From the sequence record MN022785.1: a stretch of DNA of 64,000 nucleotides. The stretch is one strand, 5' to 3'. Of the stretch, positions 1 through 54,561 are shown in pieces. A program made the position numbers and the translations under genes. Every line of letters begins with the position of its first letter. Within the stretch, counting starts at the first letter, position 1. Origin of the DNA: Escherichia phage VEc20. Below the pieces are notes generated by a model, which was not told the DNA's origin, did not search any database, and saw nothing but the letters and a program-made list of their open reading frames with translations.

Positions 1-65
1 GCCTTGGTAAAAACGCTTACTTCCGCCGTGTATATGTTAAAGGTATCTAATCTTTGACGATTTAA

Positions 66-95
66 GGGACCTTCGGGTCCCTTTAGTTGTTTTTA
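66..95 (+). terminator. UUCG-tetraloop hairpin (GGGACC-TTCG-GGTCCC) followed by T-rich tract
   Basis: Inverted repeat 66-81 then T-rich run; lies upstream of the gene 24 late promoter. Confidence 0.5.
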
Positions 96-98
96 TGG

Positions 99-106
99 TA
101 TAAATA
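99..106 (+). promoter_or_regulatory. late promoter TATAAATA
   Basis: Exact TATAAATA about 28 nt upstream of the gene 24 ATG; T4 late promoter consensus. Confidence 0.65.
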
Positions 107-133
107 AATCATATAAACCAAAAGGAAAGCGCA

Positions 134-3033: not shown

Positions 3034-4452
3034 TTATGGATAGGTATAGATGATACCAGTTTCTAAAGCAGTTTTATGAATGATATATCCATTACGCGAT
3101 TCTTGGACATCAACTTCTGGATAGTCTTTCATCATCTTCTGAAGAGTGTAACGATGCAGGTAGTATTTACTATCTGGATCTTCAGTTTTCCAATCTTTAC
3201 CTTCTTCAGTCATTTTTTGAATTTCATCCATAACCCACCAACCGCACCAGATGTAAGCTGAGCTACGGTGTGGAAGAGGATGAACATAAGGTAATTCACC
3301 TTCTGGTTCTGGAGCAACTTTATCAGTTACCTGAACTTGACCTTCTGCCGTAATAGTTTTGCTATCATAATCAGCAGCAGTAACAGTTGCAGTAACTTCA
3401 ATAGTTTGACTTCCAATAGATGAGGTATCAACAGTATATACGTTAGTTGACCCTTCCACAGGAGAAGAATCTTTCTTCCATGAGTAAGTAATTTGTGCTG
3501 CTTCAGGTGCGCCATTAACATTAGCAGTAAATGTAGCCGAAGCATCTTGCTGAACATTAATAGAAGGAGGAGTCAATGTAACCTGTGGATTCATTGTCTT
3601 CTTATTAACTGTCAATGATACTTCATTGGAAGTAACTTCCTTTTCATTATAATTTTCTGCAGTTACTTGGGCTACGCATTTAATTCTTTTTACTCCACTT
3701 GTAGTTGGAGTATAGTTAAATGTAGAGTTAGTTTCTCCACCAACTTGTGAATCATCTACATACCACTGATACGTAGCAGACGCTCCGTCAGGTTGAGAAG
3801 CTAATGCAGCAGTAAATTGAACCGGGGTTCCAATTACTCCAGCAGCAGGACTAGCAGGAGTTACTGCCAAGGTAGTTGTCTGTGTCTTTTTATTAACTGT
3901 CAATGATACTTCATTGGAAGTAACGCTCAGTGCATCATAATCTGTCGCAGTTACTTGAGCTACACACTTAATTTTTTTAACTCCGCTTGTAGTAGGAGTA
4001 TAATTGAATGTAGCAGAAGTTGCTTCGCTCACAGGAGAACCGTCAACGTACCATTGATACGTAGCAGATGCGCCCGATGGCTGTGAAGCTAAGGCAGCAG
4101 TAAATTCAACGGCTGTTCCGATTACTCCTTCTGGAGGACTATTAGGAGTTACAGCTAAGGTAGTTGTTTGTGTCTTATTTTGAACTGTGATAGTTGTACT
4201 AATTTCAGCTGTTTCAGCTTCAGAATCAGGAATAGTATTTGTTGCAACTACCTTAATAGTCTTTTGACCAGCAGGTCCTTTTAATACATAATCAAAAGTT
4301 GCTGCTGATCCTTCTTGGGGAGCATTATCTACGCTCCAAGCATAGGTAATAGTTCCACCTCCAGTTTCACCACTGGGTGTAGCAGTAAACTGCTTGGTTT
4401 CATCAATAACCCCTGTCGGTGTTTTAGGAGTTATATCAACTGTAAAAGTCAT
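3034..4452 (-). CDS. hoc: highly immunogenic outer capsid protein Hoc with an extra Ig-like domain
   Basis: 472-aa ORF starting MTFTVDITPKTPTG with the conserved C-terminal capsid-binding region; two tandem ~96-aa Ig-like repeats of about 85% identity. Confidence 0.85.
   Translation of the reverse strand: MTFTVDITPKTPTGVIDETKQFTATPSGETGGGTITYAWSVDNAPQEGSAATFDYVLKGPAGQKTIKVVATNTIPDSEAETAEISTTITVQNKTQTTTLAVTPNSPPEGVIGTAVEFTAALASQPSGASATYQWYVDGSPVSEATSATFNYTPTTSGVKKIKCVAQVTATDYDALSVTSNEVSLTVNKKTQTTTLAVTPASPAAGVIGTPVQFTAALASQPDGASATYQWYVDDSQVGGETNSTFNYTPTTSGVKRIKCVAQVTAENYNEKEVTSNEVSLTVNKKTMNPQVTLTPPSINVQQDASATFTANVNGAPEAAQITYSWKKDSSPVEGSTNVYTVDTSSIGSQTIEVTATVTAADYDSKTITAEGQVQVTDKVAPEPEGELPYVHPLPHRSSAYIWCGWWVMDEIQKMTEEGKDWKTEDPDSKYYLHRYTLQKMMKDYPEVDVQESRNGYIIHKTALETGIIYTYP
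3601..4176 (-). repeat. tandem in-frame duplication (2 x 288 bp) inside hoc
   Basis: Sequence ttattaactgtcaatgatacttcattggaagtaac recurs at 3602 and 3890 (offset 288 bp); encodes two similar Ig-like domains. Confidence 0.85.
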
Positions 4453-4461
4453 AAGTTATCC

Positions 4462-5142
4462 TTATTTTAATGTTACGAAAGAAGAATTACGTGTTTCACG
4501 AATTAGAACTGATCCGTCACGATTAATGTAGTAAATTAAGCTAAATAAAGTTTGGTGTGCCGACGCATGTTCAAAACTAGTTGGATGAGATTTCCAATCA
4601 GGAGTTTCAGCGATCCATTGATAAATCCACCAAGGAACCGTACAGAATCCTGGATTTTTCCCCAATAATTGAAGATTCGGGCTAAAGTTTTCCGGAAGAG
4701 TAAATACAGACGGCTTTTCAGATTCAATAATCTCAGCTACAGCTTGTTCGAATTTTTCTTCAACAAAAGGAGTATCTTCAATCAAAACATCAGTATTTTC
4801 AGGAATTTTATCCGTTTCTACCACTTCAATTTTAATATCAGATTTAACTGGAGAATCAATCAGAAGTGCTGCTTCTGGATTAACTTCTTCATCGTCATAT
4901 TTTAACCCCTCTGCAGCATCAGCAGCATCAATTAAGTCTTTAATAGATAACCCATCAGTCTCTGGCATAGGTTCACTAGCGAGCTTCTGGAGGGCTTCTT
5001 CAATATCAGCAACGATATTATCAAAAGATTTATTCTTTTTGACCTTTATACCAAACTGTTCAGCATATTCAGCTAATTTAGCTTTAGCTTCTTTATTATC
5101 ATCAAGAGCCTTCAGCTCTGCAATATAATCTTTATCTATCAT
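4462..5142 (-). CDS. inh: prohead protease inhibitor Inh-like protein
   Basis: 226-aa ORF immediately upstream of hoc; position and length match T4 inh. Confidence 0.7.
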   Translation of the reverse strand: MIDKDYIAELKALDDNKEAKAKLAEYAEQFGIKVKKNKSFDNIVADIEEALQKLASEPMPETDGLSIKDLIDAADAAEGLKYDDEEVNPEAALLIDSPVKSDIKIEVVETDKIPENTDVLIEDTPFVEEKFEQAVAEIIESEKPSVFTLPENFSPNLQLLGKNPGFCTVPWWIYQWIAETPDWKSHPTSFEHASAHQTLFSLIYYINRDGSVLIRETRNSSFVTLK

Positions 5143-5155
5143 AATATTTCCTCAG

Positions 5156-5163
5156 TATAAATA
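5156..5163 (+). promoter_or_regulatory. late promoter TATAAATA
   Basis: Exact TATAAATA 29 nt upstream of the segE-like ATG. Confidence 0.6.
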
Positions 5164-5191
5164 TAGATATATTTATTACTCGGAAAATAGT

Positions 5192-5809
5192 ATGTACCAC
5201 TTTGTATATGAAACAACAAATCTAATAAATGGTAAAAAGTATATAGGAAAACACTCTACTGATGACTTGAATGATGGTTACCTTGGTTCCGGTAAGGCAA
5301 TTCAGCAGGCTATAAAGAAATATGGTGAAAACAATTTCTCTAGAACAATACTAAAAGAGTTTAAAACTTCCGAAGAAGCGTACATGTATGAAGAAGAAAT
5401 TATAACTCCTGAACTAATAAAAAGCAAAAATTATTATAATATGAAACCTGGTGGAATTGGTGGAATTGTTATGACTACAGAGGTTATAGCAAAGATGAAA
5501 GAATCTTCCGCTAAAAGATTTGAAAACTCACCAGGCACGGTATTAGGTAAAACTTGTTACACCAATGGAACTAAAAATATTTTTATTAAACCTGGAGAAC
5601 TTGTTCCAGAAGGATTTGTAAAAGGGATGGTTCATCCTAATAGAAAGTCCAGAAAAGGATGTAAAGTCAAACCGACTACCACAGGAACTTTTTGGGTCAA
5701 TAATGGCGCAATAAATAAATTAATACAACCAGACGGTATTATTCCCGACGGATTTATTAAAGGTCGTCTCATGAAAAGAGATTCTAAAGGCAAATTTAGT
5801 AAGGCATAA
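5192..5809 (+). CDS. segE: GIY-YIG homing endonuclease (segE-like)
   Basis: 205-aa ORF; N-terminal GIY-YIG motif YHFVYETTN...KKYIGK; sits between inh and uvsW where T4 carries segE. Confidence 0.65.
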   Translation: MYHFVYETTNLINGKKYIGKHSTDDLNDGYLGSGKAIQQAIKKYGENNFSRTILKEFKTSEEAYMYEEEIITPELIKSKNYYNMKPGGIGGIVMTTEVIAKMKESSAKRFENSPGTVLGKTCYTNGTKNIFIKPGELVPEGFVKGMVHPNRKSRKGCKVKPTTTGTFWVNNGAINKLIQPDGIIPDGFIKGRLMKRDSKGKFSKA

Positions 5810-5811
5810 TT

Positions 5812-7320
5812 ATGGATATTAAAGTACATTTTCACGACTTCAGTCATGTACGCATCGATTGTGAAGAGAGCACGTTCCACGAATTAAGAGATTTCTTTTC
5901 GTTTGAGGCCGATGGATATAGATTTAACCCTCGCTTCAGATATGGCAACTGGGATGGGCGAATCCGTCTTTTAGATTATAATCGTCTTCTTCCATTCGGC
6001 TTAGTCGGGCAAATTAAAAAGTTCTGCGATAACTTTGGCTATAAAGCCTGGATTGACCCACAGATTAACGAAAAAGAAGAATTATCAAGAAAAGATTTTG
6101 ATGAATGGCTTTCTAAATTAGAAATCTATTCAGGAAATAAAAGAATTGAACCGCATTGGTATCAAAAAGATGCAGTGTTCGAAGGATTAGTTAATCGTCG
6201 TAGAATTCTTAATCTTCCAACATCCGCTGGTAAATCGTTAATTCAAGCTTTGCTTGCGCGATATTATTTGGAAAATTATGAAGGTAAAATTCTTATCATT
6301 GTTCCAACAACTGCTCTAACAACTCAGATGGCTGATGACTTCGTTGACTATCGTTTATTCAGTCATGCAATGATAAAGAAAATTGGTGGCGGAGCATCAA
6401 AAGATGATAAATATAAAAATGATGCACCAGTCGTTGTTGGTACATGGCAAACTGTAGTAAAACAACCGAAAGAATGGTTCTCACAGTTTGGAATGATGAT
6501 GAATGATGAATGCCATCTTGCTACAGGAAAAAGTATTTCATCTATCATATCAGGTTTAAATAACTGCATGTTCAAATTTGGTCTATCTGGTTCATTACGT
6601 GATGGCAAAGCCAATATCATGCAGTATGTTGGAATGTTTGGTGAAATATTTAAGCCAGTAACGACTTCTAAGTTAATGGAAGATGGACAAGTAACTGAGC
6701 TAAAAATTAATAGTATTTTTCTTCGCTATCCCGATGAGTTCACTACTAAATTAAAGGGAAAAACTTATCAAGAAGAAATAAAAATTATTACGGGGCTTAG
6801 TAAAAGAAATAAATGGATCGCTAAATTGGCTATTAAGCTTGCACAAAAAGATGAAAACGCTTTTGTCATGTTTAAACATGTATCACATGGTAAAGCTATT
6901 TTCGATTTAATTAAAAATGAATACGATAAAGTTTATTACGTATCAGGGGAAGTTGATACCGAAACCCGCAATATAATGAAAACCTTAGCTGAAAATGGTA
7001 AAGGAATAATTATAGTAGCTAGTTATGGTGTATTTTCTACTGGTATTTCAGTTAAAAATCTGCATCACGTTGTTTTAGCGCACGGTGTTAAATCAAAAAT
7101 CATTGTATTACAAACAATCGGTCGTGTATTACGTAAGCATGGTTCTAAAACAATCGCAACAGTCTGGGACCTCATAGATGACTGTGGTGTCAAGCCAAAA
7201 TCTGCTAATACTAAAAAGAAATATGTTCACTTGAACTATCTTTTAAAACACGGCATTGATCGTATTCAGCGCTACGCAGATGAAAAATTTAATTACGTAA
7301 TGAAAACAGTTAATTTATAA
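5812..7320 (+). CDS. uvsW: UvsW DNA helicase
   Basis: 502-aa ORF with Walker A (PTSAGKS) and DECH box. Confidence 0.9.
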   Translation: MDIKVHFHDFSHVRIDCEESTFHELRDFFSFEADGYRFNPRFRYGNWDGRIRLLDYNRLLPFGLVGQIKKFCDNFGYKAWIDPQINEKEELSRKDFDEWLSKLEIYSGNKRIEPHWYQKDAVFEGLVNRRRILNLPTSAGKSLIQALLARYYLENYEGKILIIVPTTALTTQMADDFVDYRLFSHAMIKKIGGGASKDDKYKNDAPVVVGTWQTVVKQPKEWFSQFGMMMNDECHLATGKSISSIISGLNNCMFKFGLSGSLRDGKANIMQYVGMFGEIFKPVTTSKLMEDGQVTELKINSIFLRYPDEFTTKLKGKTYQEEIKIITGLSKRNKWIAKLAIKLAQKDENAFVMFKHVSHGKAIFDLIKNEYDKVYYVSGEVDTETRNIMKTLAENGKGIIIVASYGVFSTGISVKNLHHVVLAHGVKSKIIVLQTIGRVLRKHGSKTIATVWDLIDDCGVKPKSANTKKKYVHLNYLLKHGIDRIQRYADEKFNYVMKTVNL

Positions 7321-7336
7321 GGGCTTCGGCCCTTTG
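7320..7336 (+). terminator. short UUCG hairpin after uvsW
   Basis: GGGC-TTCG-GCCC followed by TTT; weak. Confidence 0.3.
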
Positions 7337-7345
7337 GAGAAAAAG

Positions 7346-7576
7346 ATGTTACTAGAATTTAAACAATTTCTTTATGAAGCTTCTATTGATGAATTTATGG
7401 GTAAAATTGCCTCTTGTCAAACATTAGAAGGTTTAGAAGAACTTGAAGCTTATTATAAGAAAAGAGTTAAAGAAACTGAATTAAAAGATACTGATGACAT
7501 CTCAGTCAGAGATGCTTTGGCAGGAAAAAGAGCTGAATTAGAAGATTCAGACGATGAAGTAGAAGAAAGCTTTTAA
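7346..7576 (+). CDS. uvsW.1: UvsW.1-like small acidic protein
   Basis: 76-aa ORF from the first ATG (7346) with GGAG RBS; the supplied ORF starts at an upstream TTG. Confidence 0.6.
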   Translation: MLLEFKQFLYEASIDEFMGKIASCQTLEGLEELEAYYKKRVKETELKDTDDISVRDALAGKRAELEDSDDEVEESF

Positions 7577-7577
7577 A

Positions 7578-7608
7578 TTAAAAAAGGCCCAACCAAAAAG
7601 GAAGGGCC
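7578..7608 (-). terminator. hairpin with minus-strand U-run
   Basis: GGCCC...GGGCC stem; on the minus strand followed by CTTTTTTAAT; downstream of the uvsY operon. Confidence 0.4.
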
Positions 7609-7631
7609 AAAACTATAGACTAAAGGTCACA

Positions 7632-7799
7632 CTATAGCAAAAGTTGCGTTTCATTTAATTGTTCTTCCGAACTTTCTGAAACTGGTAGTTCTTTAATGTA
7701 ATTATAGCAAGGCCCAGGATGTACAGGACCTTTGTCTGTTTCAACAACCAATGCAGAATCGATTGGAGTTTTACAGACAACACAAATCTTATCTGACAT
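7632..7799 (-). CDS. small Cys-containing protein (uvsY.-2-like), 55 aa
   Basis: Hand-translated MSDKICVVCKTPIDS...HPGPCYNY; strong RBS GAGGAG; late promoter immediately upstream; below the 60-aa ORF cutoff. Confidence 0.45.
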   Translation of the reverse strand: MSDKICVVCKTPIDSALVVETDKGPVHPGPCYNYIKELPVSESSEEQLNETQLLL

Positions 7800-7824
7800 G
7801 ATTGTCTCCTCTGAATTATATATC

Positions 7825-7832
7825 TATTTATA
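7825..7832 (-). promoter_or_regulatory. late promoter TATAAATA (minus strand)
   Basis: Plus-strand tatttata = minus-strand TATAAATA, about 26 nt upstream of the 55-aa ORF. Confidence 0.5.
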
Positions 7833-8052
7833 CAACTCTCATATGCATATCAATGCCCATATCTTTAGAATAAAAATATTCATCAAGATATCCGGCAAAT
7901 TTTCCTTTAATATAAAGAACATCTTCACCGCACGGGTGGTCAGCCAGGATACGAATATCCTGACGCTTGAGATTATACTTTTTCATTAAGAATTGAATTT
8001 CCGTTTCAAATTCTTCTTCATAATTAAAAGCATCATCAATGCTATATCTCAT
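7828..8052 (-). CDS. hypothetical protein (uvsY.-1-like)
   Basis: 74-aa ORF; TAATG stop/start overlap with uvsY. Confidence 0.55.
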   Translation of the reverse strand: MRYSIDDAFNYEEEFETEIQFLMKKYNLKRQDIRILADHPCGEDVLYIKGKFAGYLDEYFYSKDMGIDMHMRVV

Positions 8053-26363: not shown

Positions 26364-26596
26364 AGTACGCCATACACCCTTTGTGCTTCAACTAATCCAT
26401 CAAAATCCAGTTTAAGATGCGATATTTGATCGCCATCACCTGGATTCACAATTACTAATACTGAACGAGGAGTTTCGGTAATAACACGAACCGATGTTTC
26501 AGGAAATCGTTCAGAAACCTTATTTACCAATTCCTGAGCAAATAGTTTAACTTTTTCTTGGAATTCTTTAACAGTAATTGGTTTTTCACTTAGCAT
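26360..26596 (-). CDS. hypothetical protein (cd.2-like)
   Basis: 78-aa ORF. Confidence 0.45.
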   Translation of the reverse strand: MLSEKPITVKEFQEKVKLFAQELVNKVSERFPETSVRVITETPRSVLVIVNPGDGDQISHLKLDFDGLVEAQRVYGVL

Positions 26597-27117
26597 GTTG
26601 ATCCCAGCTCCTTACTTTCAACGTTTTTAACTAATTTGACAGAAACTAATTCAGCATCTTGAGTAATCATTACCGGGCCTTCTTCATACTCTTCAAGATA
26701 TTCTAGAGCTTTCTTTTTAGCTTCTTCCTTCGTATCAGTTTGAGCATAGATATAAAACATACAACCAGTAATACCTACTACTTTCCACTTAATTTCTTTA
26801 TCAGTTTTAATTTCAAATTTACTGACAGAATCATCTTTTTGAACTTCTTCGAAAAAAGAATATTCTAACATATAAGCAATTGAAAATAACGGGCTAACTT
26901 TATAAGATTCGCCCATTACATCAACAGCTTTATACCAACAATCATCAATTTCGCGTTTAATGCTAATAACATTTTTCGCAGGATCTATTTTTACTTTAAA
27001 TGAATTTTCCCCAATAAACTGGGCAATTCGTTTATTAGCCCCGCAAGTTTCATTAAAAATATCTTTATATCCAGCTTTAAAGCGATAAACCTTATCTTCT
27101 TCAAACCATTCGCTCAT
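26590..27117 (-). CDS. hypothetical protein (cd.3-like)
   Basis: 175-aa ORF downstream of the early promoter at 27148-27176. Confidence 0.5.
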   Translation of the reverse strand: MSEWFEEDKVYRFKAGYKDIFNETCGANKRIAQFIGENSFKVKIDPAKNVISIKREIDDCWYKAVDVMGESYKVSPLFSIAYMLEYSFFEEVQKDDSVSKFEIKTDKEIKWKVVGITGCMFYIYAQTDTKEEAKKKALEYLEEYEEGPVMITQDAELVSVKLVKNVESKELGSTC

Positions 27118-27848: not shown

Positions 27849-29073
<1,225 letters not shown>

Positions 29074-30505: not shown

Positions 30506-32093
<1,588 letters not shown>

Positions 32094-32120: not shown

Positions 32121-33290
32121 TTAAAAATATTTTTTAAAACTCATCATAACTTTATCATCAACATCATTATCAATCTGTGCTACAAGGTAAGATGACAGTT
32201 CTACTTCTTGCGGCGCGGATTGAACATTATCAGAATTAAGGTATTCACGAATCCAAGGATATGGATGTTTAACCGGAGCATCGGTAATTGGGCATGGAAG
32301 ACCGCACTGTTTCATACGAGATACAGTTAAGTAATCAATAAAGCTCCACATGCTATTTGTATTTAATCCAGGAACATCACCATCTTTAAATAAATGAACT
32401 GCCCAATCTTTTTCTTGGCGGTTAACTTCCATGAAAATATCAACTGCTTCTTGTTCACACTCTTGAGCAATTTTAACCCATTCATCGCCATCAGTGCCAA
32501 GTTGAAGTTGACGAATAATATATTGAGTGCCTTTAAGGTGAAGCTGCTCATCACGTGCAATGAACTTCATAATCTTGGCATTACCTTCCATGATTTCCAT
32601 ATTCTTGTGGAAGTTAAAGGTACATGCGAAAGATACATAAAAACGAATAGCTTCTAAGGCATTAATAACGTGCAAACAGAGGTAAAGAGATTTCATTAGC
32701 TCTCGTTTGGCGTATTCAACGACTTTACCAAGTTCATCTTTGCGCCAACCTTCAGACAAAATTCCTTCGTATTCTTCTTTAGCGTTTTCCCAATAACGAG
32801 TTTTAATCAGAACATCATCATAATAACGTCCAATGGATTCAGCACGTTTCATAATAGCTTCATCTAGTACAATCTCATCAAATACCTTTGACGGATCAGT
32901 ATAAAGATTTCGCATGATATGTGTATATGAACGGCTGTGAATAGTTTCACTAAAAGTCCATGTAGCAACCCATGTATCAAGGCTTGGGTCTGAAATTAAT
33001 GACATAAGTACAGCAGACGGTGCACGACCCTGAATGCTATCCAAAAGTGATTGATACTTCAGGTTATTAGTAAAAATATTTTGCTGATACTGAGGAAGCT
33101 TATTAAACTGTGCAGCATCCATCATTAAGTTTACTTCTTCAGGACGCCAGAAAAATGATAAAGATTTCTCAATAAGTTCTTCAAATACTCTATGCCGTTG
33201 AATATCATATCGAGCTAAACCCAATCCAGAACCAAAAAACATCGGCTCAGTCAAAATATTAACAGGGGATGTATTAAAAACTGTACTCAT
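32121..33290 (-). CDS. nrdB: ribonucleotide reductase small subunit NrdB (uninterrupted)
   Basis: Continuous 389-aa ORF with no intron. Confidence 0.9.
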   Translation of the reverse strand: MSTVFNTSPVNILTEPMFFGSGLGLARYDIQRHRVFEELIEKSLSFFWRPEEVNLMMDAAQFNKLPQYQQNIFTNNLKYQSLLDSIQGRAPSAVLMSLISDPSLDTWVATWTFSETIHSRSYTHIMRNLYTDPSKVFDEIVLDEAIMKRAESIGRYYDDVLIKTRYWENAKEEYEGILSEGWRKDELGKVVEYAKRELMKSLYLCLHVINALEAIRFYVSFACTFNFHKNMEIMEGNAKIMKFIARDEQLHLKGTQYIIRQLQLGTDGDEWVKIAQECEQEAVDIFMEVNRQEKDWAVHLFKDGDVPGLNTNSMWSFIDYLTVSRMKQCGLPCPITDAPVKHPYPWIREYLNSDNVQSAPQEVELSSYLVAQIDNDVDDKVMMSFKKYF

Positions 33291-33928
33291 TTAGAATCCT
33301 TAAATTTACATTTATCATAATGCCATCTTAGAGCATTGCCTTTATTAACTTTCTTGCCACAATGCGGACAAGGCGGATACTCTATACTTTGCTTAGTTCT
33401 CAAAGAAATCAAATCGCGAGTTTCTTTAGTATGAGGAACATCTCTTGTCGGAGAGATTGTACCATACATCGGATTAAGCACGCCGACTTTAGCAGCAGCT
33501 ATATTCTTTTTAGCTTCTTCGGTTTTAGGTTTTCTCATGCGAGCTAAATGCTCTTTGGTAAATTTCCTTCCTTTAAGAGCTCTACTTATCTTTTCCCTGG
33601 TTTCTATAGAAACTTCACGTCCTATAGCAGCTTCAGATAAACGTCGTCTACCTAATTCGTATAGTTGAGAAGAAATTTTATATGAGCGATTTTTACCAGT
33701 CAAGCACATTAAACCAAAAGCTTTCTTTAATCCTGGGGTGTCATATATTTTGCATAAAAGCCAATGAGCTATAAAATGCTCTCTACCTGTTAATTCAACT
33801 AAATTTTCTTTATCATCAGAACCTCCCATGCATCTAGGGATTATATGATGAGTCTCTTTATATCCTAATAAAGGTTCCCGAGCCTGAGCTCGGGAAATTA
33901 GGTCATTATAGATTTTTTGATAATTCAT
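33287..33928 (-). CDS. mobE: HNH homing endonuclease (mobE-like)
   Basis: 213-aa ORF with HNH motif HHIIPRCMGGSDDKENLVELTGREHFIAH; sits between nrdA and nrdB where T4 carries mobE. Confidence 0.6.
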   Translation of the reverse strand: MNYQKIYNDLISRAQAREPLLGYKETHHIIPRCMGGSDDKENLVELTGREHFIAHWLLCKIYDTPGLKKAFGLMCLTGKNRSYKISSQLYELGRRRLSEAAIGREVSIETREKISRALKGRKFTKEHLARMRKPKTEEAKKNIAAAKVGVLNPMYGTISPTRDVPHTKETRDLISLRTKQSIEYPPCPHCGKKVNKGNALRWHYDKCKFKDSK

Positions 33929-36749: not shown

Positions 36750-37061
36750 TTATACCGCCATTTTTCCTTTCAAGACACCGTGGGATTGATAATCTTTGAG
36801 AACGAAATCTTTAGGCCTAAGTTTAAGAACATATTTTAATTGTTCTTTAGTAGAAAGATATCGGAATTTATAAGGTAGACCACTTATTACCAGCTCACAA
36901 AGCTCTTTAGGTTCACGCCTCAAAATTTCTTTACATTGTTCTACGTGATTCATATAGATATGAGTATTACCACCAGAAAATATCAAATCTCCTGGAATAA
37001 GATTACACATCTTAGCTACAATATGCGTCAAGGCAGCGTACGAGGCAATGTTGAACGGTAG
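36750..37061 (-). CDS. td: thymidylate synthase, exon 2
   Basis: Encodes LPFNIASYAALTHIVAKMC... through the stop; the 3' splice site follows the intron-terminal G at 37062. Confidence 0.85.
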   Translation of the reverse strand, partial: LPFNIASYAALTHIVAKMCNLIPGDLIFSGGNTHIYMNHVEQCKEILRREPKELCELVISGLPYKFRYLSTKEQLKYVLKLRPKDFVLKDYQSHGVLKGKMAV

Positions 37062-38077
37062 CATTATGTTCAGATAAGGTCGTTAATCTTATCCCGGAAT
37101 TATATCCAGCTGCATGTCACCATGCAGAGCAGACTATATCTCCAACTTGTTAAAGCAAGTTGTCTATCGTTTCGAGTCACTTGACCCTACTCCCTAAAGG
37201 GATAGTCGTTAGGCATTTATGTAGAACCAATTCCACTTATCAGATTTTACACGGTAAGTAACTAATCCTGATGAAATTTCAAAATGTCTAGCCGCATCGG
37301 CTGCACATTCAAAAATAATCCCATCGCATGAAATCTTTTTGATGTTAGCTGGCTTTTTGCCTTTCATCTTTTCAGATAGTTTAGTTTTAGTTTTTTCTGA
37401 ATGTTTGTGATTAAAGAACGGGTTATTTTCACCTGAACGTTTTCGGCACTTTCCACAAGTATCGGCCGAAGATGGTATGCGAACACCGCATTTACAAAAC
37501 TTGTGGTTTTCTGGATTCCATCGGCCATTTTTACTTCCGTGTTTACCATAAAGAGCTTTCCGACCATCAGGACCAAGCTTAAGCATCTTAGCTTTAACAG
37601 TTTCAGCTCGTTTCTTAGCAATTTCTTCTTTTAATGGATGATTTGAAAGCACATCGCCAAAAGACGCATCAGCAATATTATATCCATTAATTTTAGAATT
37701 TAGCTCTTTAATCCAAAAATTTTCTCGTTCAATAATCAAATCTTTCTCATATGGAATTTCTTCCAGTACAGAGCATTCAAAAACATTACCATGTTTATTA
37801 AAAGACCTTTGAAATTTTATAGAAGAGTGAACACCGTTTTCAAGGTCTTTAAAATGTCTCTTCCATCTTTTCTCAAAATCTTTAGCACTTCCAACATACA
37901 CTTTACCGTTTAAAGTGTTTTTAATCTGATAAATTCCGCTTTTCATAAACACCTCTTTTTATATAGAAGTATTTATTAAAGGGTAGTCCTACAATTTAGC
38001 ACGGGATTGTCTACTAGAGAGGTCCCCCGTTTAGATAGATTACAAGTATAAGTCACCTTATACCTAGGCCTAAATTA
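37062..38077 (-). mobile_element. td group I self-splicing intron carrying the I-TevI gene
   Basis: 1016 nt between exon 1 (...FLG) and exon 2; 5' end reads UAAUUUAGGCCUAGGUAUAAGGUGAC and 3' end ...CAUAAUG, as in the T4 td intron. Confidence 0.85.
37209..37946 (-). CDS. I-TevI: intron-encoded GIY-YIG homing endonuclease I-TevI
   Basis: 245 aa from ATG 37946 (MKSGIYQIKNTLNGKVYVGS...) with RBS GAGG. Confidence 0.85.
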   Translation of the reverse strand: MKSGIYQIKNTLNGKVYVGSAKDFEKRWKRHFKDLENGVHSSIKFQRSFNKHGNVFECSVLEEIPYEKDLIIERENFWIKELNSKINGYNIADASFGDVLSNHPLKEEIAKKRAETVKAKMLKLGPDGRKALYGKHGSKNGRWNPENHKFCKCGVRIPSSADTCGKCRKRSGENNPFFNHKHSEKTKTKLSEKMKGKKPANIKKISCDGIIFECAADAARHFEISSGLVTYRVKSDKWNWFYINA

Positions 38078-38626
38078 ACCCAAGAAAACATCTACACTGC
38101 GTTGATACCACTGCAAATCCAAATAGCCATTACGCACATTAAACTGATAGAACATATGACAAGGCGGTAATGCCATATATTTAAGTTCAGCTGGATTCCA
38201 CGCAGAAACAATTTGTCGCCTATCATTCGGCAGTTTTTTAATACGATCAATAACTTCTACAATTTGGTCTACACCGCCAAAATCACGCCACTGTTTTCCA
38301 TAAATTGGACCAAGTTCACCGCTATGGTATCCTAAATCTTTTGCTTGATTTTCGTAATTTTCATCCCAGACTGTTTTGCCTTGAATTAATGAATCATGCT
38401 GAATTAATCGTAAATCATTGACATTTGTGCTTCCTGATAAAAACCAAAGTAGCTCAGCAATGCATGCATTCCAGGCGAGCTTTTTAGTTGTTACTGCAGG
38501 AAAACCTTTACTTAAATCCCAGCGTAATTTAGTACCGAACAAAGCAATTGTTCCTGTGCCTGTTCGATCATCGGTTTCATAGCCATTTTCAAAAATGTCT
38601 TTAATTAAATCTTGGTATTGTTTCAT
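38078..38626 (-). CDS. td: thymidylate synthase, exon 1
   Basis: 183 codons MKQYQDLIKD...QRSVDVFLG ending at the 5' splice site; 183 + 103 = 286 aa. Confidence 0.85.
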
Positions 38627-38671
38627 TTAGTACCTTATATAAATTATAATACATTTTATGAAGCTAAATAA

Positions 38672-39019
38672 TCAATACGGTTTAGCATCAAATTTTCTTT
38701 CGATTTCAGGAGTGAAATATAATTCTTTACCGCGTTTAGAAAAGCGACCAATAATATGATAATTATTCTCATCAAACGTGATATTACCAATATCCATAGC
38801 TTTCAACCAAATATCGATATTTCTATCCAGCTTTATGTCAAAATTCCAATACGGAGAACTATTACCGAAAATACTGCAAGCGGATTCAGTGAAACAACTG
38901 CTATAAATCTTGTCTTTAGGAACTACTAATTGATAGACACCTTTAATAAACTGAGGACCTTGCCATTTTGGCTGTTTTGCGTCTTTTTCTAATAGAATAG
39001 GATAATAATTAAAGTTCAT
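38672..39019 (-). CDS. hypothetical protein encoded by a cassette inserted between frd and td
   Basis: 115 aa from ATG 39019 (MNFNYYPILLEK...); no recognisable motif. Confidence 0.5.
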   Translation of the reverse strand: MNFNYYPILLEKDAKQPKWQGPQFIKGVYQLVVPKDKIYSSCFTESACSIFGNSSPYWNFDIKLDRNIDIWLKAMDIGNITFDENNYHIIGRFSKRGKELYFTPEIERKFDAKPY

Positions 39020-39039
39020 ATTTTCCGCCACGCGTTATT

Positions 39040-41945: not shown

Positions 41946-42012
41946 TTTATTTCCTTTTTAATTTAATTTAATTAACAGTTGGTGCTATGACACTTTACCT
42001 CATAGCTGGCAT
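41946..42012 (-). promoter_or_regulatory. gene 32 translational operator (pseudoknot plus A/U-rich repeat)
   Basis: mRNA leader GCUAUGAGGUAAAGUGUCAUAGCACCAACUGUUAAUUAAAUUAAAUUAAAAAGGAAAUAAA-AUG matches the T4 gene 32 autoregulatory leader. Confidence 0.7.
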
Positions 42013-42632
42013 AATTCGCAATACTCTGGGTCTTCGAGAGGTATCCAACCTAAGTTGAAATACTTTACCATCGATTTAGCAGTTGTATCAGTTATATTTA
42101 TATTACCTTTAACTCTTCGCCATCCAGGAGTTTTACCGTACAGATTAGAGGATAATAATAACACATAATTCTCGTAAGCAATATGAGATAATTTCCAAGA
42201 CTCTATATTAGCTCGTGATGTTTTCCAAGGTCTAAAATCGTCACGGTTCATATAATTAGCCAATCTCATATGCTCTCTAACTTCCGGGTCTTTGGCTGGA
42301 TGAGTTTCACCACTCACACCAAATCCACCACCAGCATATACCAGATTAAAATAGTCTGGATTATCTCTTGCATTTACTTCAAGTTGGTATTTTCGTTCTG
42401 CTTCAATAACATCCAAGTCATCATCAATTTGAATTATTTTAACGCTCGGTTTTTGAAGCATTAGCGCATTCAAAAATCTTTTTTGTTTACATGAGCTCCA
42501 GTATTCCTTTCCGGAAGAGTCATATATTATTCCGTTCTCAAATGAGCAATTTAATTTACTACCGATATAATAGTATGGCGGAGTCTTATTTTTGACACGG
42601 TCTTCAAATGTAAACCAATATACTATATTCAT
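42000..42632 (-). CDS. segG: GIY-YIG homing endonuclease (segG-like)
   Basis: 210-aa ORF with N-terminal IVYWFTF...YYIGSK motif; between genes 59 and 32 as segG is in T4. Confidence 0.6.
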   Translation of the reverse strand: MNIVYWFTFEDRVKNKTPPYYYIGSKLNCSFENGIIYDSSGKEYWSSCKQKRFLNALMLQKPSVKIIQIDDDLDVIEAERKYQLEVNARDNPDYFNLVYAGGGFGVSGETHPAKDPEVREHMRLANYMNRDDFRPWKTSRANIESWKLSHIAYENYVLLLSSNLYGKTPGWRRVKGNINITDTTAKSMVKYFNLGWIPLEDPEYCELCQL

Positions 42633-50614: not shown

Positions 50615-53600
50615 ATGGCTACTTTAAAACAAATACAATTTAAAAGAAGCAAAACTGCAGGTCAACGTCCTGCTGCTTCAGTATTAGCCGAAGGTGAATT
50701 GGCTATAAACTTAAAAGATAAAACAATTTTCACAAAAGATGACTTAGGTAGTGTTATAGAATTAGGTTTAAAATATGGAGGAACAATTGATGGTTCTTTA
50801 ACTGTTAATGGAAACATAATTGGAAATTTAACAGGTAACGCTGCAACTGCAACGAAATTAAAAACAGCACGAAAAATTAATGGTATATCCTTTGATGGGT
50901 CAAAAGATATCACGCTAACTCCATCTGACATAAATGTCAATAGCACAACGTTTATAAAAAATAACGGCGAATTACCTGTTGATGCTAATTTAGATGAGTA
51001 TGGGCCTGTTGAAGAATATCTTGGAGTTTGGTCGAAAGCAACTTCAACCAACGCTCAACCAGCAAATAAATTTCCAGAAGAAAATGCTGTAGGTGTTCTA
51101 GAAGTATTTGTGGCCGGTCAATTTGCTGGTACTCAGAGATATACAACTAGATACGGAAATGTTTATATTCGTTCCTTGACTGCTACATGGAACGGAGTAA
51201 ACGGTCCGTGGAGTGCGTGGCGAAATATTCAATCTGGTACTCGTCCACTGTCAACAACGATTGATCTTAATGATCTAGGAGGCGCTGAACACCTTGGTTT
51301 GTGGCGAAATAGTTCAAATTCCATTGCTACCTTTGACAGAAATTTCCCAGAAGAAGGATCGTCAGCTCAAGGACTTTTAGAAGTATATGAAGGTGGAAAC
51401 TATTCTCGCACACAGAGATATACGACCAGATTTGGTGTTGTTTATACTCGCTGTCTTGCTGCTGCATGGGATGCATCTGCACCTAAATGGGGACCGTGGC
51501 AACAAGTCGGTAATGTCACACCGGCGACTTTCTATGACGGAGACCTGAATGATTTTAAAGCTCCTGGGTTATATAACATTTTAGGCACTGATGCCGTTAT
51601 TAACTGTCCTACCGGTGAAGGTTTGCCGACTGTTATTGTTGGTTTGCTGGAAGTTAAACAGCGTGCTTCTGGCGGTGCTATTTTCCAAAAATTTACTACT
51701 GCCGGAACGGGTGCAACTACTCGCGATCGTATTTTTGAGCGTGCATATACTGGTGGTGTGTGGGGTGCATGGAACGAAGTATATACATCTTATTCCCTGC
51801 CAATTACTTTGGGTATGGGTGGTATTAAATCTAACTTAGCAGAGTTAGACTGGCAAACATTTGATTTTGTTCCTGGTAGTATGTTTAGCGTTCCTTTGAA
51901 CAAAATAAAGAACATGCCAGCTAATATGGATTGGGGTACGATTGACGGAAACTTAATTATGTTTTCTGTTGGTCCTAGCGAGCACACCAGCACAGGACGT
52001 ACTGTTCAGGTTTGGCGTGGTACTGTATCCCAGACAAACTACCGTTATTTTGTCGTTCGTGTATTCGGTAATTCAGGAAATAGAACTTGCACAGTTCGTC
52101 GCGTTGTTCTTGAAGATGGTCGCCACAAATGGACAGCGCAACAAGATTTTAATGGCGCAGTTAACTTCGGTGCTCCTACCAATTTTAACTCTACTGTTAA
52201 CCTTAATAACACTACCACTTTTAAAACAGAAGTTAAATTTCGCTCATTGAATGCATTCCGTATGTATGGCGGAAAATTTGGTACAATTTTCCGTAATGAT
52301 GGAGAGAGTCTTTATATTCTTTCCACCGACGAAGATGATCAAGATGGAAACTTTAATAAAAATAGACCTTTCCGCTATCAATTAAAAACTGGCGATGTTA
52401 CTTTGGGTGGCACTAGTGGTGCTAACGTTTTAAAATTAAAACGTGATTCTCTCACCGCATTTTTTGGTGGTGATATTAACATGAAAGGCTTGATGACTTT
52501 TGACGCCGGACGTTTAGGATCACGAGATTATTTTAAATTTAACCATTGGGGTGATAGTAATAATGCGCGCGATAACATTATTCAGTTAGAAGACAGCAAA
52601 GGCGTTCATTTTTCCACTGAACGTACTTTAGCGACAGGTGCAATTAAAACTAAATTTTTTGGTGAAACCTTCACTGACGGTACATTATACCTAAATCAGA
52701 TGAATAATAGCTCTGAACGATTCTCTATCAACAATTGGGGAAATTCAGAAGTTGGACGCGCGGCAATCTTAGAAATCAGCGATTCACAAGGTTATCACTT
52801 CTATACGGAACGTAGAACAGATGACAGTTTGGTGTTTGATATATCCGGTGCGTTGACCGTGCGTGGACCTAACGGAATAACCGTCAAAAACTCAACTGGT
52901 GCACGCCATATCTGGTTTAGAGATGATAGCGAAACAGAAAAGGCTGTTATTTGGGTGACCGATGATGGTATTTTACATATACGAAATAATCGTGGGGGTT
53001 CATTTAGTCATCACTTCCAAGGTGCAATGATTAAAGCGGGAGAGCGTGTTCCTTATGCCGGAGATCAAGGGCTTATTCGCGGTGAAGTTTCTGGTGGTGC
53101 ATGGGTAGACTGGCGAGATCGTCCGGCTGGATTGTTGGTAGACTGTCAGGACTCACGAAGTCAAGCATATAACATTTGGAAAGCTACTCATTGGGGCGAA
53201 CAGCACCTTGCGGCGATGGGTGTTCATGCTGGCGGTGGTAATCCTCATGTTGTATTGCATGTGGGTGGGAGTGATTATGCATTTGCATCTAACGGTGATT
53301 TTACTGCTGGTGCTGCTGTATATTGTAACGACGTTTATATTCGTTCTGACCGTCGTCTGAAAAATAATGTTGAAGACTACGAAGAGAATGCGGTGGATAA
53401 GGTAAATAAACTCAAAGTTAAAACCTATGATAAAGTTAAATCTCTTTCTGACCGCGAAGTTATCGGCCATGAGATTGGTATTATCGCACAGGATTTGCAA
53501 GAAGTATTACCGGAAGCTGTTAGCACTTCTAGTGTCGGATCTCAGGATAACCCAGAAGAAATTTTAACAATTTCTAACTCTGCTGTGAACGCGCTTTTAA

Positions 53601-53698
53601 TTAAGGCTATCCAAGAAATGAGCGAAGAAATTAAAGAATTAAAAACGCCTTTCTTCACTAAAATTGCTCGCAAAATTAGTAATTATTTTAAATTCTAA
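50615..53698 (+). CDS. 37: long tail fibre distal subunit gp37 with C-terminal intramolecular-chaperone-like domain
   Basis: 1027-aa ORF; SDRRLK motif about 116 aa from the C-terminus. Confidence 0.9.
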
Positions 53699-53704
53699 CA
53701 ACAA

Positions 53705-53720
53705 GGGGCTTTGCCCCTTT
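53705..53720 (+). other. short GC hairpin between genes 37 and 38
   Basis: GGGGC-TTT-GCCCC followed by TTT; weak terminator or attenuator. Confidence 0.35.
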
Positions 53721-53730
53721 GGAGAAAATT

Positions 53731-54531
53731 ATGGCAGTAGTTGGAGTTCCTGGCTGGATTGGAAGTTCAGCCGTAAATGAAACGGGTCAGCGCTGGATGA
53801 GTCAAGCAGCTGGTCAATTAAGATTGGGTGTTCCTTGCTGGATGAGTCAATTTGCAGGTCGCTCAAGAGAAATTATTCATACACTTGGAGCAGACCATAA
53901 CTTCAATGGTCAATGGTTCCGAGATAGATGTTTTGAGGCCGGTAGTGCACCTATAGTGTTTAATATTACAGGTGATTTAGTATCATATTCTAAAGATGTT
54001 CCTTTATTCTTCATGTACGGGGATACGCCTAATGAATATGTTGTTCTTAATATTCATGGTGGTGTTCATATGTGGGGTCGTGGTGGTAATGGTGGATACA
54101 CTCACTCGGGAGGCGACGGTAACGGTACACAAGGTGGTCATGTTATTCAAAATGATATCGGTGGACGGCTTCGTATTTGGAACTACGGTGTTATAGCTGC
54201 TGGCGGTGGCGGCGGTGGTGGTATTGCATATCGTCCACACTCAGGGGCAAACTGGCAAGATATCGGTGGCGGTGGTGGTCGACCTTTCGGTGGCGCTGGC
54301 GGTGGCGGTTATTCCGGTGGTGCTGCTTCGTATGAAGGTCCGGGTGGTGGTTATGACTATGGTAACGCACACTCCGGCGCTGGTGGTAATGCTGGTGCTG
54401 CTGGTCAGAATGCATGGTCTGACGGCGGTAAAGTTCTTAAAGTTGGTGTTGGTGGTGCGTCTGGTCATGCAGTGTTTGGATCTTCTCCAACTTGGGGTGT
54501 TGTTGGAACAATTTACGGACCAAGAGTATAA
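53731..54531 (+). CDS. 38: receptor-recognising adhesin gp38 (T2-type, glycine-rich motifs)
   Basis: 266 aa from ATG 53731 ([19 protein letters not shown]...) with RBS GGAG; C-terminal half has poly-Gly blocks ([25 protein letters not shown]) separated by short variable segments. Confidence 0.8.
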
Positions 54532-54561
54532 TGTGAATAAATACCCTTAAAAGGAGGGTCT

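What the first reader, a model, noticed from the sequence alone, without database searches (positions are those of the whole stretch)
5156..5809. segE-like GIY-YIG endonuclease expressed from a late promoter
This free-standing GIY-YIG ORF lies on the late (plus) strand with an exact TATAAATA 29 nt upstream, so it would be co-expressed with the uvsW helicase and late structural genes. Together with mobE-like, I-TevI and segG-like genes this makes four homing-endonuclease genes in 64 kb.
Basis: partly seen in the sequence, partly recalled or inferred. Interest (0 to 1): 0.35.

Follow-up and report, generated by a model that had tools for sequence, protein, structure and literature searches.

The report
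Phage T4 segE homing endonuclease gene
This is the well-studied segE homing-endonuclease gene of a T4-type phage, sitting in its usual place behind the late promoter that relatives lacking segE use for the uvsW helicase gene, so it is ordinary and already known.

Summary
ORF 5192..5809 (+, 205 aa) has an exact TATAAATA at 5156-5163, 28 nt before its ATG.

It is not merely "segE-like". It is segE:
- The protein matches T4 SegE at 204 of 205 residues.
- The upstream region is identical to T4, and the gene order hoc-inh | segE-uvsW is the same.

Pfam (SegE_GIY-YIG), profile comparison and a predicted structure all place the N-terminal domain with the I-TevI catalytic domain. Published T4 work shows that SegE is an active homing endonuclease targeting uvsW, and that its RNA and protein are both late.

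Comparison with relatives refines the picture:
- About 485 segE-free phages keep the same promoter block (5143-5179) at the same spacing before uvsW. segE therefore sits behind the resident inh/uvsW divergent late promoters.
- segE travels with a roughly 150-nt divergent uvsW 5' end (74% identity to the empty-site allele, then about 99%).

The count of four homing-endonuclease genes in the window is supported.

One oddity remains. The canonical GIY-YIG arginine helix has no aligned counterpart in the SegE family.

Verdict: already known, low interest.

The parts
4462..5142 (-). inh (prohead protease inhibitor), the left-hand neighbour, transcribed divergently
   Evidence: ORF. Annotated as inh in T4 at the homologous position. 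Classed late RNA and late protein in T4.
5143..5179 (.). Conserved 37-nt intergenic block holding the divergent late promoters. The left edge of the segE insertion is at 5179/5180.
   Evidence: In the spread sample of matches, segE-free phages match only query positions 1-37, at 100% identity. The sequences of phiD1, SA35RD and UFV06 confirm this.
5156..5163 (+). TATAAATA late-promoter octamer driving segE-uvsW
   Evidence: Exact match. Identical in T4. Found at the same 28-nt spacing before the uvsW ATG in segE-free phiD1. Annotated as a T4-late promoter in SA35RD. T4 segE and uvsW RNAs are late.
5170..5177 (-). AATAAATA (7 of 8) on the - strand, 27 nt before the inh ATG: the probable inh late promoter
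   Evidence: Read. STML-198 has an exact TATTTATA (the reverse complement of TATAAATA) at the equivalent place. The review mentions a late promoter upstream of inh. Assigning that promoter to these bases is my inference.
5180..5191 (+). segE leader (TCGGAAAATAGT) with a weak GGA Shine-Dalgarno-like motif at 5182-5184. It replaces the ATGGTATTTAGAC of the empty-site alleles.
   Evidence: The review lists segE among genes with a recognisable translation initiation region.
5192..5809 (+). segE coding sequence (205 aa plus stop)
   Evidence: 204/205 aa identical to T4 SegE. Five nucleotide differences from T4T over 5100-5830.
5192..5467 (+). GIY-YIG catalytic domain (about aa 1-92): Y6, Y17, H21, D28, Y30, G32-S33-G34, K43, E67, N83
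   Evidence: Pfam PF19835. hhalign to I-TevI gives probability 91%, E 1e-6. The AF2 model has block-mean pLDDT of 93-98 over residues 1-80 and 85 over 81-90. Foldseek top hits are 1mk0 and 1ln0, probability 1.00.
5477..5806 (+). C-terminal half (about aa 96-205), presumed DNA-binding. It has a helix at 96-112 and then two copies of a beta-hairpin plus P-x-G-F-x-K-G motif (aa 121-146 and 166-192).
   Evidence: Sequence. Secondary structure from the model. Conserved G165, W168, G172, P185, G191 and R192 in homologues. No Pfam model matches. The DNA-binding role is inferred from the domain layout of other GIY-YIG homing endonucleases.
5710..5717 (+). AATAAATA (7 of 8) inside segE, 94 nt before the uvsW ATG: candidate embedded promoter for uvsW
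   Evidence: The review states that promoters for the downstream gene are embedded in segE. Whether this is that promoter was not shown here.
5812..7320 (+). uvsW helicase gene, starting 2 nt after the segE stop codon
   Evidence: T4 annotation.
5812..5961 (+). uvsW 5' tract linked to segE. It is 74% identical to the empty-site allele, mostly at synonymous sites, with one codon fewer (MDIK... against MTDIK...). It is the presumed cleavage-resistant version of the homing site and part of the mobile cassette.
   Evidence: Identity per 30 nt against phiD1 is 23, 23, 22, 22, 21, then 28-30. The distribution over 771 phage records is bimodal. Alignment.

Best explanation
The ORF is segE, the free-standing GIY-YIG homing endonuclease gene of T4-type phages, in a phage about 98% identical to T4 over this region.

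Shown here:
- The gene with its 12-nt leader, together with about 150 nt of a divergent uvsW 5' end, forms a cassette of roughly 780 bp (5180 to about 5961).
- The cassette sits immediately downstream of the divergent inh/uvsW late-promoter block.
- segE is therefore the first cistron of the late segE-uvsW transcript that starts a few bases after TATAAATA (5156-5163).
- uvsW starts 2 nt after the segE stop codon.

Taken from published T4 work:
- SegE RNA and protein appear only late in infection, together with Inh and UvsW.
- SegE cuts the uvsW region of relatives that lack segE (the review lists uvsW as the target gene).
- In mixed infection, repair of that break copies segE and flanking markers into the recipient with nearly 100% efficiency.

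Inferred:
- The divergent, mostly synonymous uvsW 5' tract is what makes the carrier genome a poor substrate.
- The highly conserved junction of empty-site phages is the homing site.
- The N-terminal domain (Y6, Y17, E67, N83) does the chemistry, and the C-terminal half with its two repeated hairpin motifs binds DNA.
For: Identity with T4 SegE is 204/205 aa, and the DNA including the promoter is identical apart from 5 nt. The gene order is the same as in T4.

Family and fold: Pfam SegE_GIY-YIG is above its cut-off. PHROG 314 scores 1e-43. hhalign to I-TevI gives probability 91%. The AF2 model has mean pLDDT 85.6, and its best PDB matches are the I-TevI catalytic domain, at probability 1.00 and TM 0.62-0.65 normalised to the target.

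Presence/absence polymorphism at one fixed site: 168 records hold at least 80% of the segE query, and in the spread sample segE-free phages keep only 5143-5179. 485 records carry the empty-site junction, 333 of them at 99% identity or more, including T2.

Linked target-side divergence: 157 records are at least 95% identical to the window's uvsW 5' end, 589 are 60-80% identical and 25 are mosaic. The boundary falls about 150 nt into uvsW.

A segE homologue with 64% aa identity occupies the same inh|uvsW site, behind the same promoter pair, in the Gelderlandvirus STML-198.

Literature: segE is active, free-standing, inserted at inh/uvsW, targets uvsW, and is transcribed from a promoter in the upstream non-coding region. 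Homing from T4 into RB30 is almost 100% efficient. segE, uvsW and inh are each classed late RNA and late protein, and SegE peptides are detected only at the late time points.
Against: Nothing contradicts the identification. Caveats follow.
- The canonical catalytic Arg (I-TevI R27) has no aligned counterpart, and no Arg is conserved in 65 family members.
- The exact cleavage position could not be read. The primary paper is not held, and two secondary sources differ: 'uvsW' against 'hoc.1-uvsW intergenic region'.
- This phage's protein differs from T4's by D97E, and none of the experiments were done on this phage.
- uvsW may also be transcribed from a promoter inside segE, so co-transcription need not be the only route.
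Confidence: 0.96

Rival explanations
1. segE and uvsW are not mainly co-transcribed. The upstream TATAAATA serves segE, and uvsW is driven chiefly by a promoter embedded in the segE coding sequence, for example AATAAATA at 5710-5717. This is not exclusive with the main explanation.
For: [quoted passage not shown] A 7-of-8 late-like octamer lies 94 nt before the uvsW ATG. The inh promoter appears to use the same AATAAATA variant.
Against: No terminator lies between segE and uvsW, and the gap is only 2 nt. In segE-free phages the upstream TATAAATA is the only promoter-like element before uvsW, at the same spacing. There is no exact late octamer and no MotA box inside segE.
Confidence: 0.3
2. The gene is a decaying or domesticated remnant that no longer cuts DNA, consistent with the missing canonical arginine.
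For: I-TevI R27 aligns to a gap, and no Arg is conserved in the family. The general GIY-YIG Pfam model scores just under its cut-off, 21.5 against 22.6 bits.
Against: The ORF is intact and 98-100% identical across the carriers sampled. Y6, Y17, K43 and N83 are invariant, and H21 and E67 nearly so, in 65 homologues down to about 30% identity. T4 SegE, one residue different, is reported active in vitro and in crosses, and its protein is made.
Confidence: 0.02
3. Beyond selfish homing, SegE's breaks serve the phage itself, for example by excluding competitor markers or stimulating local recombination or amplification near uvsW, as recently proposed for SegB.
For: Marker exclusion by Seg enzymes is documented. 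A 2026 paper reports SegB-driven amplification of anti-defence loci (PMC13096335 abstract). Mosaic uvsW 5' alleles exist in 25 records.
Against: Nothing in this window bears on it. The flanking genes (inh, uvsW) are core genes, not anti-defence cargo. Only about a quarter of relatives carry segE, as expected for a selfish element.
Confidence: 0.08

Closest known systems
Bacteriophage T4 SegE (gene segE; UniProt P18060 as listed)
   Same: 204/205 aa. The promoter and leader are identical. The insertion site between inh (hoc.1) and uvsW is the same, as is the 2-nt gap to uvsW.
   Different: One conservative substitution (D97E) and four synonymous changes. The host phage differs from T4 elsewhere: no segD, no nrdB intron, a different mobE-like gene and different tail-fibre tips.
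I-TevI catalytic domain (PDB 1LN0, 1MK0)
   Same: Same fold (Foldseek probability 1.00). Aligned Tyr6, Tyr17, Glu (E67 with E75) and Asn (N83 with N90). A two-domain layout with a C-terminal DNA-binding part.
   Different: Only 26-28% identity. SegE is free-standing rather than intron-encoded. SegE lacks the first helix that carries R27 and has instead a shorter loop with invariant D28, Y30 and G32-S33-G34. The C-terminal half has no zinc finger and no I-TevI DNA-binding domain (compare).
Other free-standing T4 homing endonuclease genes, such as segG between genes 32 and 59
   Same: An intergenic cassette integrated into a resident transcription unit, with promoters for the neighbouring gene kept or embedded. 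The window's segG-like ORF likewise holds a TATAAATA upstream of gene 32, at 42095-42102.
   Different: segG, segC, segF and mobE are described as promoter-less cassettes read from upstream genes. segE lies directly behind a promoter in non-coding DNA, and that promoter is shown here to be the resident uvsW promoter.
segE homologue of Salmonella phage STML-198 (Gelderlandvirus)
   Same: Same inh|uvsW site, the same divergent late-promoter pair, the same 2-nt gap to uvsW, and uvsW beginning MDIK.
   Different: 64% aa and 68% nt identity, 209 aa, and a TTG start as annotated.

Membership tests
T4 SegE orthologue | Near-identity to T4 SegE over the full length | tested here: met
   204/205 identical, no gaps.
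T4 SegE orthologue | Location between inh (hoc.1) and uvsW, in the same orientation as uvsW | tested here: met
T4 SegE orthologue | Site-specific cleavage of the segE-free uvsW region, and preferential inheritance in mixed infection | not testable with these tools
   Reported for T4 crossed with RB30. The primary paper is not held.
GIY-YIG nuclease superfamily | N-terminal 'GIY' and 'YIG' motifs, each with a conserved Tyr, about 10 residues apart | tested here: met
   FVY (Y6) and YIG (Y17). Both Tyr are present in 65/65 homologues and align to I-TevI Y6 and Y17.
GIY-YIG nuclease superfamily | Conserved Arg in the centre of the domain (I-TevI R27), as in the definition quoted | tested here: inconclusive
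   BLASTP and hhalign both put the I-TevI helix that carries R27 opposite a 9-residue gap. No Arg is conserved among 65 homologues; the conserved basic residues are K15 (64/65), H21 (64/65) and K43 (65/65). The model has a loop at residues 24-34 where I-TevI has, by my recollection of its structure, its first helix. Whether a Lys or His occupies the Arg position in space could not be read, because model coordinates are not returned.
GIY-YIG nuclease superfamily | Conserved Glu in the C-terminal part (I-TevI E75) | tested here: met
   E67 aligns with E75 in the profile alignment and is present in 63/65 homologues.
GIY-YIG nuclease superfamily | Conserved Asn of the homing-endonuclease/UvrC lineage (I-TevI N90) | tested here: met
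   N83 aligns with N90 and is present in 65/65.
GIY-YIG nuclease superfamily | Three-stranded sheet flanked by helices (the I-TevI fold) | tested here: met
   The model has strands at 2-10, 16-23 and 49-57 and helices at 35-44, 60-70 and 73-77, with block-mean pLDDT of 93-98 over residues 1-80. The best PDB matches are 1mk0 and 1ln0, probability 1.00. Pfam PF19835 scores 36.5 against a cut-off of 25.
Free-standing homing endonuclease gene (mobile cassette) | Present or absent at one fixed site among otherwise collinear close relatives | tested here: met
   168 records hold at least 80% of the segE query, against 485 with the empty-site junction. The left edge is sharp at 5179/5180.
Free-standing homing endonuclease gene (mobile cassette) | The carrier allele differs from the empty allele in the target region (self-protection or co-converted tract) | tested here: met
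   The first 150 nt of uvsW are 74% identical and the rest about 99%. The distribution is bimodal. That this tract confers resistance to cleavage is an inference.
T4 late promoter | TATAAATA octamer a short distance upstream of a late gene | tested here: met
   Exact octamer 28 nt before the ATG. It is conserved in relatives with and without segE.
T4 late promoter | Transcript appears late in infection (gp55/gp33-dependent) | not testable with these tools
   For T4 itself, segE is classed late RNA and late protein. The start site was not mapped here.

The most novel reading that the evidence does not exclude
The SegE clade may be a biochemically proven GIY-YIG endonuclease lineage that has lost the helix carrying the canonical catalytic arginine. 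In its place it has built the active site around an invariant D28-x-Y30-x-G-S-G loop together with K43 and/or H21. That would be a variant catalytic architecture within the superfamily.
Probability: 0.35. Interest if true: 0.3.

Novelty: already known. Interest (0 to 1): 0.08.

Why it matters
It matters little as a discovery. segE, its site, its activity and its late expression are textbook T4 biology. The analysis is useful as a clean worked example of how a free-standing homing endonuclease gene fits into a host transcription unit. The gene sits exactly behind a divergent late-promoter pair that the phage cannot afford to lose. It supplies the ribosome-binding region for the displaced uvsW gene. 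It also carries a recoded copy of its own target. The survey shows that about a quarter of sequenced T4-type relatives carry it and that mosaic alleles exist. The one point a specialist might follow up is the missing canonical arginine in this clade.

Tried and rejected
- A sequence search of PDB chains with SegE did not find I-TevI. It returned only marginal hits (phage tail tube gp13, E 0.008), which I treat as chance. The relationship needed profile and fold comparison.
- The Rfam scan of the whole window found nothing at gathering thresholds, not even the td group I intron that houses I-TevI, so it gives no information here.
- The sigma-70 promoter scan of 4400-7900 found fewer sites than shuffles did (5 against 13.8), and none before segE. 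Terminator-like sites were at chance level.
- There is no MotA-box (TGCTT) middle-promoter motif and no second exact late octamer in 5000-5900, so I could not confirm the review's 'embedded promoter' beyond one 7-of-8 match.
- The primary SegE paper (FEBS Lett 1997) and the T4 genome review (Miller 2003) are not held, so the exact cleavage coordinates and the curated promoter list could not be checked.
- I considered a fifth endonuclease gene in the window. T4's segD and I-TevIII are absent here, and the ORFs in stretches without a T4 match belong to unknown-function or tail-fibre families.
- The minus-strand ORFs overlapping segE (5302..5427 and 5632..5880) are not annotated in T4, and I treat them as chance ORFs.

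Full report
**1. What is in the sequence**

The window has an ATG-initiated ORF at 5192..5809 on the + strand (205 aa). An exact TATAAATA lies at 5156-5163, with 28 nt between it and the ATG. To the left, on the opposite strand, is a 226-aa ORF (4462..5142). To the right, 2 nt after the stop codon, a 502-aa ORF starts at 5812.

The octamer count alone is not significant: 11 in 64 kb against 8.4 +/- 3.0 in shuffles. Its placement is what counts. Set against the ORF lists and the T4 gene table, ten of the eleven copies sit upstream, in the right orientation, of genes that T4 annotates: 24, segE/uvsW, uvsY.-2, 26, 51, alt, rIII, 32, 34 and 36. The eleventh, at 31042 (+), lies antisense inside rnlA.

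**2. Identity**

A megablast of 4400-7400 finds 798 phage records. The best are Tequatrovirus genomes at 98-99% identity, and T4 itself is at 97.9%. The features under the match are annotated hoc, inh, segE and uvsW.

T4 records place segE exactly here, between inh (-) and uvsW (+). The protein is 204/205 identical to T4 SegE, the only change being D97E. The DNA from 5100 to 5830 differs from T4T at five positions, none of them in the promoter or leader. So this is segE itself, not a segE-like gene.

**3. Protein family**

- Pfam gives SegE_GIY-YIG (PF19835) at 36.5 bits against a cut-off of 25. The general GIY-YIG model falls just below its cut-off, at 21.5 against 22.6 bits.
- PHROG 314 'homing endonuclease' scores 1e-43.
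- A database search returns 1418 homologues, most of them carrying PF19835, PF01541 or NUMOD3.
- A profile of 65 homologues aligns to the window's own I-TevI with probability 91% and E 1e-6.
- An AlphaFold model built on that alignment has mean pLDDT 85.6, with block means of 93-98 over residues 1-80.
- The model's only meaningful PDB matches are the I-TevI catalytic domain (1mk0, 1ln0), at probability 1.00, TM 0.61-0.65 normalised to the target, and 26-27% identity.

**4. Catalytic residues**

In both the pairwise and the profile alignments, Y6 and Y17 match I-TevI Y6 and Y17, and N83 matches N90. In the profile alignment E67 matches E75.

Across the 65 homologues:
- Y6, Y17, G19, D28, Y30, G32, S33, G34, K43, G45 and N83 are invariant.
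- K15, H21 and F49 are each present in 64/65.
- E67 is present in 63/65.

The I-TevI segment that carries R27 falls opposite a 9-residue gap. No arginine is conserved anywhere in the domain.

The model shows a loop at residues 24-34 and only one helix (35-44) between strands 2 and 3. By my recollection of the I-TevI structure, it has two helices there. The definition of the superfamily quoted includes this Arg, so I mark that feature as inconclusive. Sequence says it is absent. Whether K43 or H21 takes its place in space could not be read with the tools.

This does not weaken the identification, because T4 SegE is reported to be an active site-specific nuclease.

**5. C-terminal half**

Residues 96-205 match no Pfam model. 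The sequence holds two copies of one motif: aa 121-146 (TCYTNGTKNIFIKPGELVPEGFVKGM) and aa 166-192 (TFWVNNGAINKLIQPDGIIPDGFIKGR). Each is modelled as a beta-hairpin. G165, W168, G172, P185, G191 and R192 are conserved in the family. By analogy with other two-domain GIY-YIG homing endonucleases this is the DNA-binding part. That is an inference.

**6. The promoter belongs to the locus, not to segE**

A sensitive search with 5143-5811 finds 168 records that hold at least 80% of the query. In the spread sample of the remaining matches, segE-free phages match only query positions 1-37, that is 5143-5179, at 100% identity.

In segE-free phages the same block is followed by ATGGTATTTAGAC and then the uvsW ATG. 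In phiD1 the TATAAATA-to-ATG spacing is 28 nt, as before segE here. This was checked in:
- phiD1 and UFV06, both Tequatrovirus;
- SA35RD, a Mosigvirus. Its authors annotated the octamer as a T4-late promoter.

On the minus strand of the same block, 5177..5170 reads AATAAATA, 27 nt before the inh ATG. The review refers to a late promoter upstream of inh.

The Gelderlandvirus STML-198 carries a segE homologue with 64% aa identity at the same site. It has an exact TATAAATA and an exact reverse-complement copy facing inh.

The cassette therefore begins exactly where the divergent promoter pair ends. segE has become the first cistron of the resident late uvsW transcript.

**7. The right-hand side**

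Against phiD1, the first 150 nt of uvsW are 111/150 identical. The next kilobase is 28-30 identical per 30 nt. The differences are mostly synonymous, and some codons differ at more than one position (AGC against TCG for Ser, AGA against CGC for Arg). By my own translation of the alignment, there are five amino-acid changes and one codon fewer.

Across 771 phage records this 150-nt tract is bimodal:
- 157 records are at least 95% identical to the window;
- 589 records are 60-80% identical;
- 25 records are 80-90% identical.

One of the intermediates, UFV06, lacks segE and is a mosaic. Alignment columns 1-88 are of the empty-site type and columns 89-150 of the carrier type.

The empty-site junction is a 78-nt stretch running from just after the octamer into codon 16 of uvsW. 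It is at least 99% identical in 333 records, including T2, and 90-95% identical in a further 142.

This is the pattern expected of a homing site and a cleavage-resistant carrier allele. From memory, the abstract of Kadyrov et al. 1997 places the cut at the 5' end of uvsW in RB30 and says T4's own DNA is cut less efficiently. I could not verify this, because the paper is not held. The two secondary sources say 'uvsW' and 'hoc.1-uvsW intergenic region'.

**8. Expression**

The T4 review states that segE is transcribed from a promoter in the non-coding region upstream of its ORF. It also states that promoters for the downstream gene are embedded in segE.

The supplements of a time-resolved RNA and protein study of T4 infection class segE, uvsW and inh each as late RNA and late protein. 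SegE peptide intensities are zero until the late time points, in step with UvsW and Inh.

Since the window's promoter, leader and coding sequence are essentially T4's, late expression is well supported by transfer from T4.

Inside segE I found no exact late octamer and no MotA box. There is only one 7-of-8 match, AATAAATA at 5710-5717. It may be the embedded uvsW promoter.

**9. The count of four endonuclease genes**

- 33287..33928 (-) is an HNH/NUMOD3 protein of 213 aa in PHROG 655 'homing endonuclease'. It is 60% identical to T4 MobE over 127 residues and nearly identical over the first 60.
- 37209..37952 (-) is I-TevI, with all three of its Pfam domains.
- 42000..42632 (-) belongs to PHROG 7504 'homing endonuclease', scoring 2e-132, at the position where T4 has segG.
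- nrdB is an uninterrupted 389-aa ORF, so there is no nrdB intron and no I-TevIII.
- The 23-24 junction shows no similarity to T4's segD region.
- The stretches of the window with no T4 counterpart hold no endonuclease families.

Four is therefore correct for this window. T4 has six in the equivalent interval.

**10. Verdict**

The finding is a correct rediscovery of a gene that has been characterised genetically, biochemically and by omics. Novelty is 'already known', and interest is low.

The only residual curiosity is the absent canonical arginine in the SegE clade.

Noticed in passing
window 1-133: The region upstream of gene 24 shows no similarity to T4's segD region. It has a GC-rich hairpin (GGGACCTTCGGGTCCC) followed by TATAAATA at 99-106. 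This phage appears to lack segD.
   Followed up: partly
window 32121-33290 (-): nrdB is one uninterrupted 389-aa ORF. The T4 nrdB group I intron and its defective I-TevIII gene are absent.
   Followed up: partly
window 33287-33928 (-): The HNH/NUMOD3 gene between nrdA and nrdB is 213 aa, against 141 aa for T4 MobE. It is nearly identical over the first 60 residues and then divergent. It fills the space that T4 gives to mobE plus nrdB.1, and 33539-33742 has no T4 match. It could be a fuller-length MobE or a different allele such as Hef. This was not resolved.
   Followed up: partly
window 38672-39031 (-): A 119-aa ORF (PHROG 1928, unknown function) lies between td and frd, where T4 has no gene. 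38630-39034 has no T4 match.
   Followed up: partly
window 26590-27117 (-) and 28753-29073 (-): Two ORFs of unknown function (PHROG 3710 and PHROG 2364) occupy stretches with no DNA match to T4, in the cd-pseT region.
   Followed up: partly
window 50770-54536: The distal part of gene 37 and the following gene have no DNA similarity to T4. ORF 53719-54531 matches PHROG 2056/1121, 'tail fibre protein; host specificity / adhesin'. T4's record notes that the T2 subfamily uses an unrelated gp38 as its adhesin, so this may be a receptor-recognition module of that kind.
   Followed up: partly
window 3034-4452 (-): hoc encodes 472 aa, against 376 aa in T4. The BLAST segments overlap by about 300 nt in T4 coordinates, which suggests an extra repeat of an internal domain. 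phiD1 has a hoc of the same 1419-nt length.
   Followed up: no
L005 (Escherichia phage UFV06) 1495-1706; 25 phage records in all: These are segE-free phages with a mosaic uvsW 5' end, empty-site type for the first 88 alignment columns and carrier type for columns 89-150. They are evidence of recombination inside the tract linked to segE.
   Followed up: partly
L007 (Salmonella phage STML-198) 2462-3131: A segE homologue with 64% aa identity sits at the same inh|uvsW site in another genus, behind an exact divergent TATAAATA/TATTTATA pair. Its uvsW also begins MDIK.
   Followed up: partly
window 42095-42102 (-): An exact TATAAATA lies inside the segG-like ORF, 149 nt upstream of gene 32. It matches the published statement that gene 32 promoters are embedded in segG.
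   Followed up: no
window 31042-31049 (+): An exact TATAAATA lies on the strand antisense to rnlA, with no obvious downstream ORF. It is probably a chance match.
   Followed up: no
window 36750-38626 (-): The Rfam scan at gathering thresholds reported no group I intron, even though td is split by the I-TevI-containing intron as in T4. The large ORF insertion probably defeats the model.
   Followed up: no
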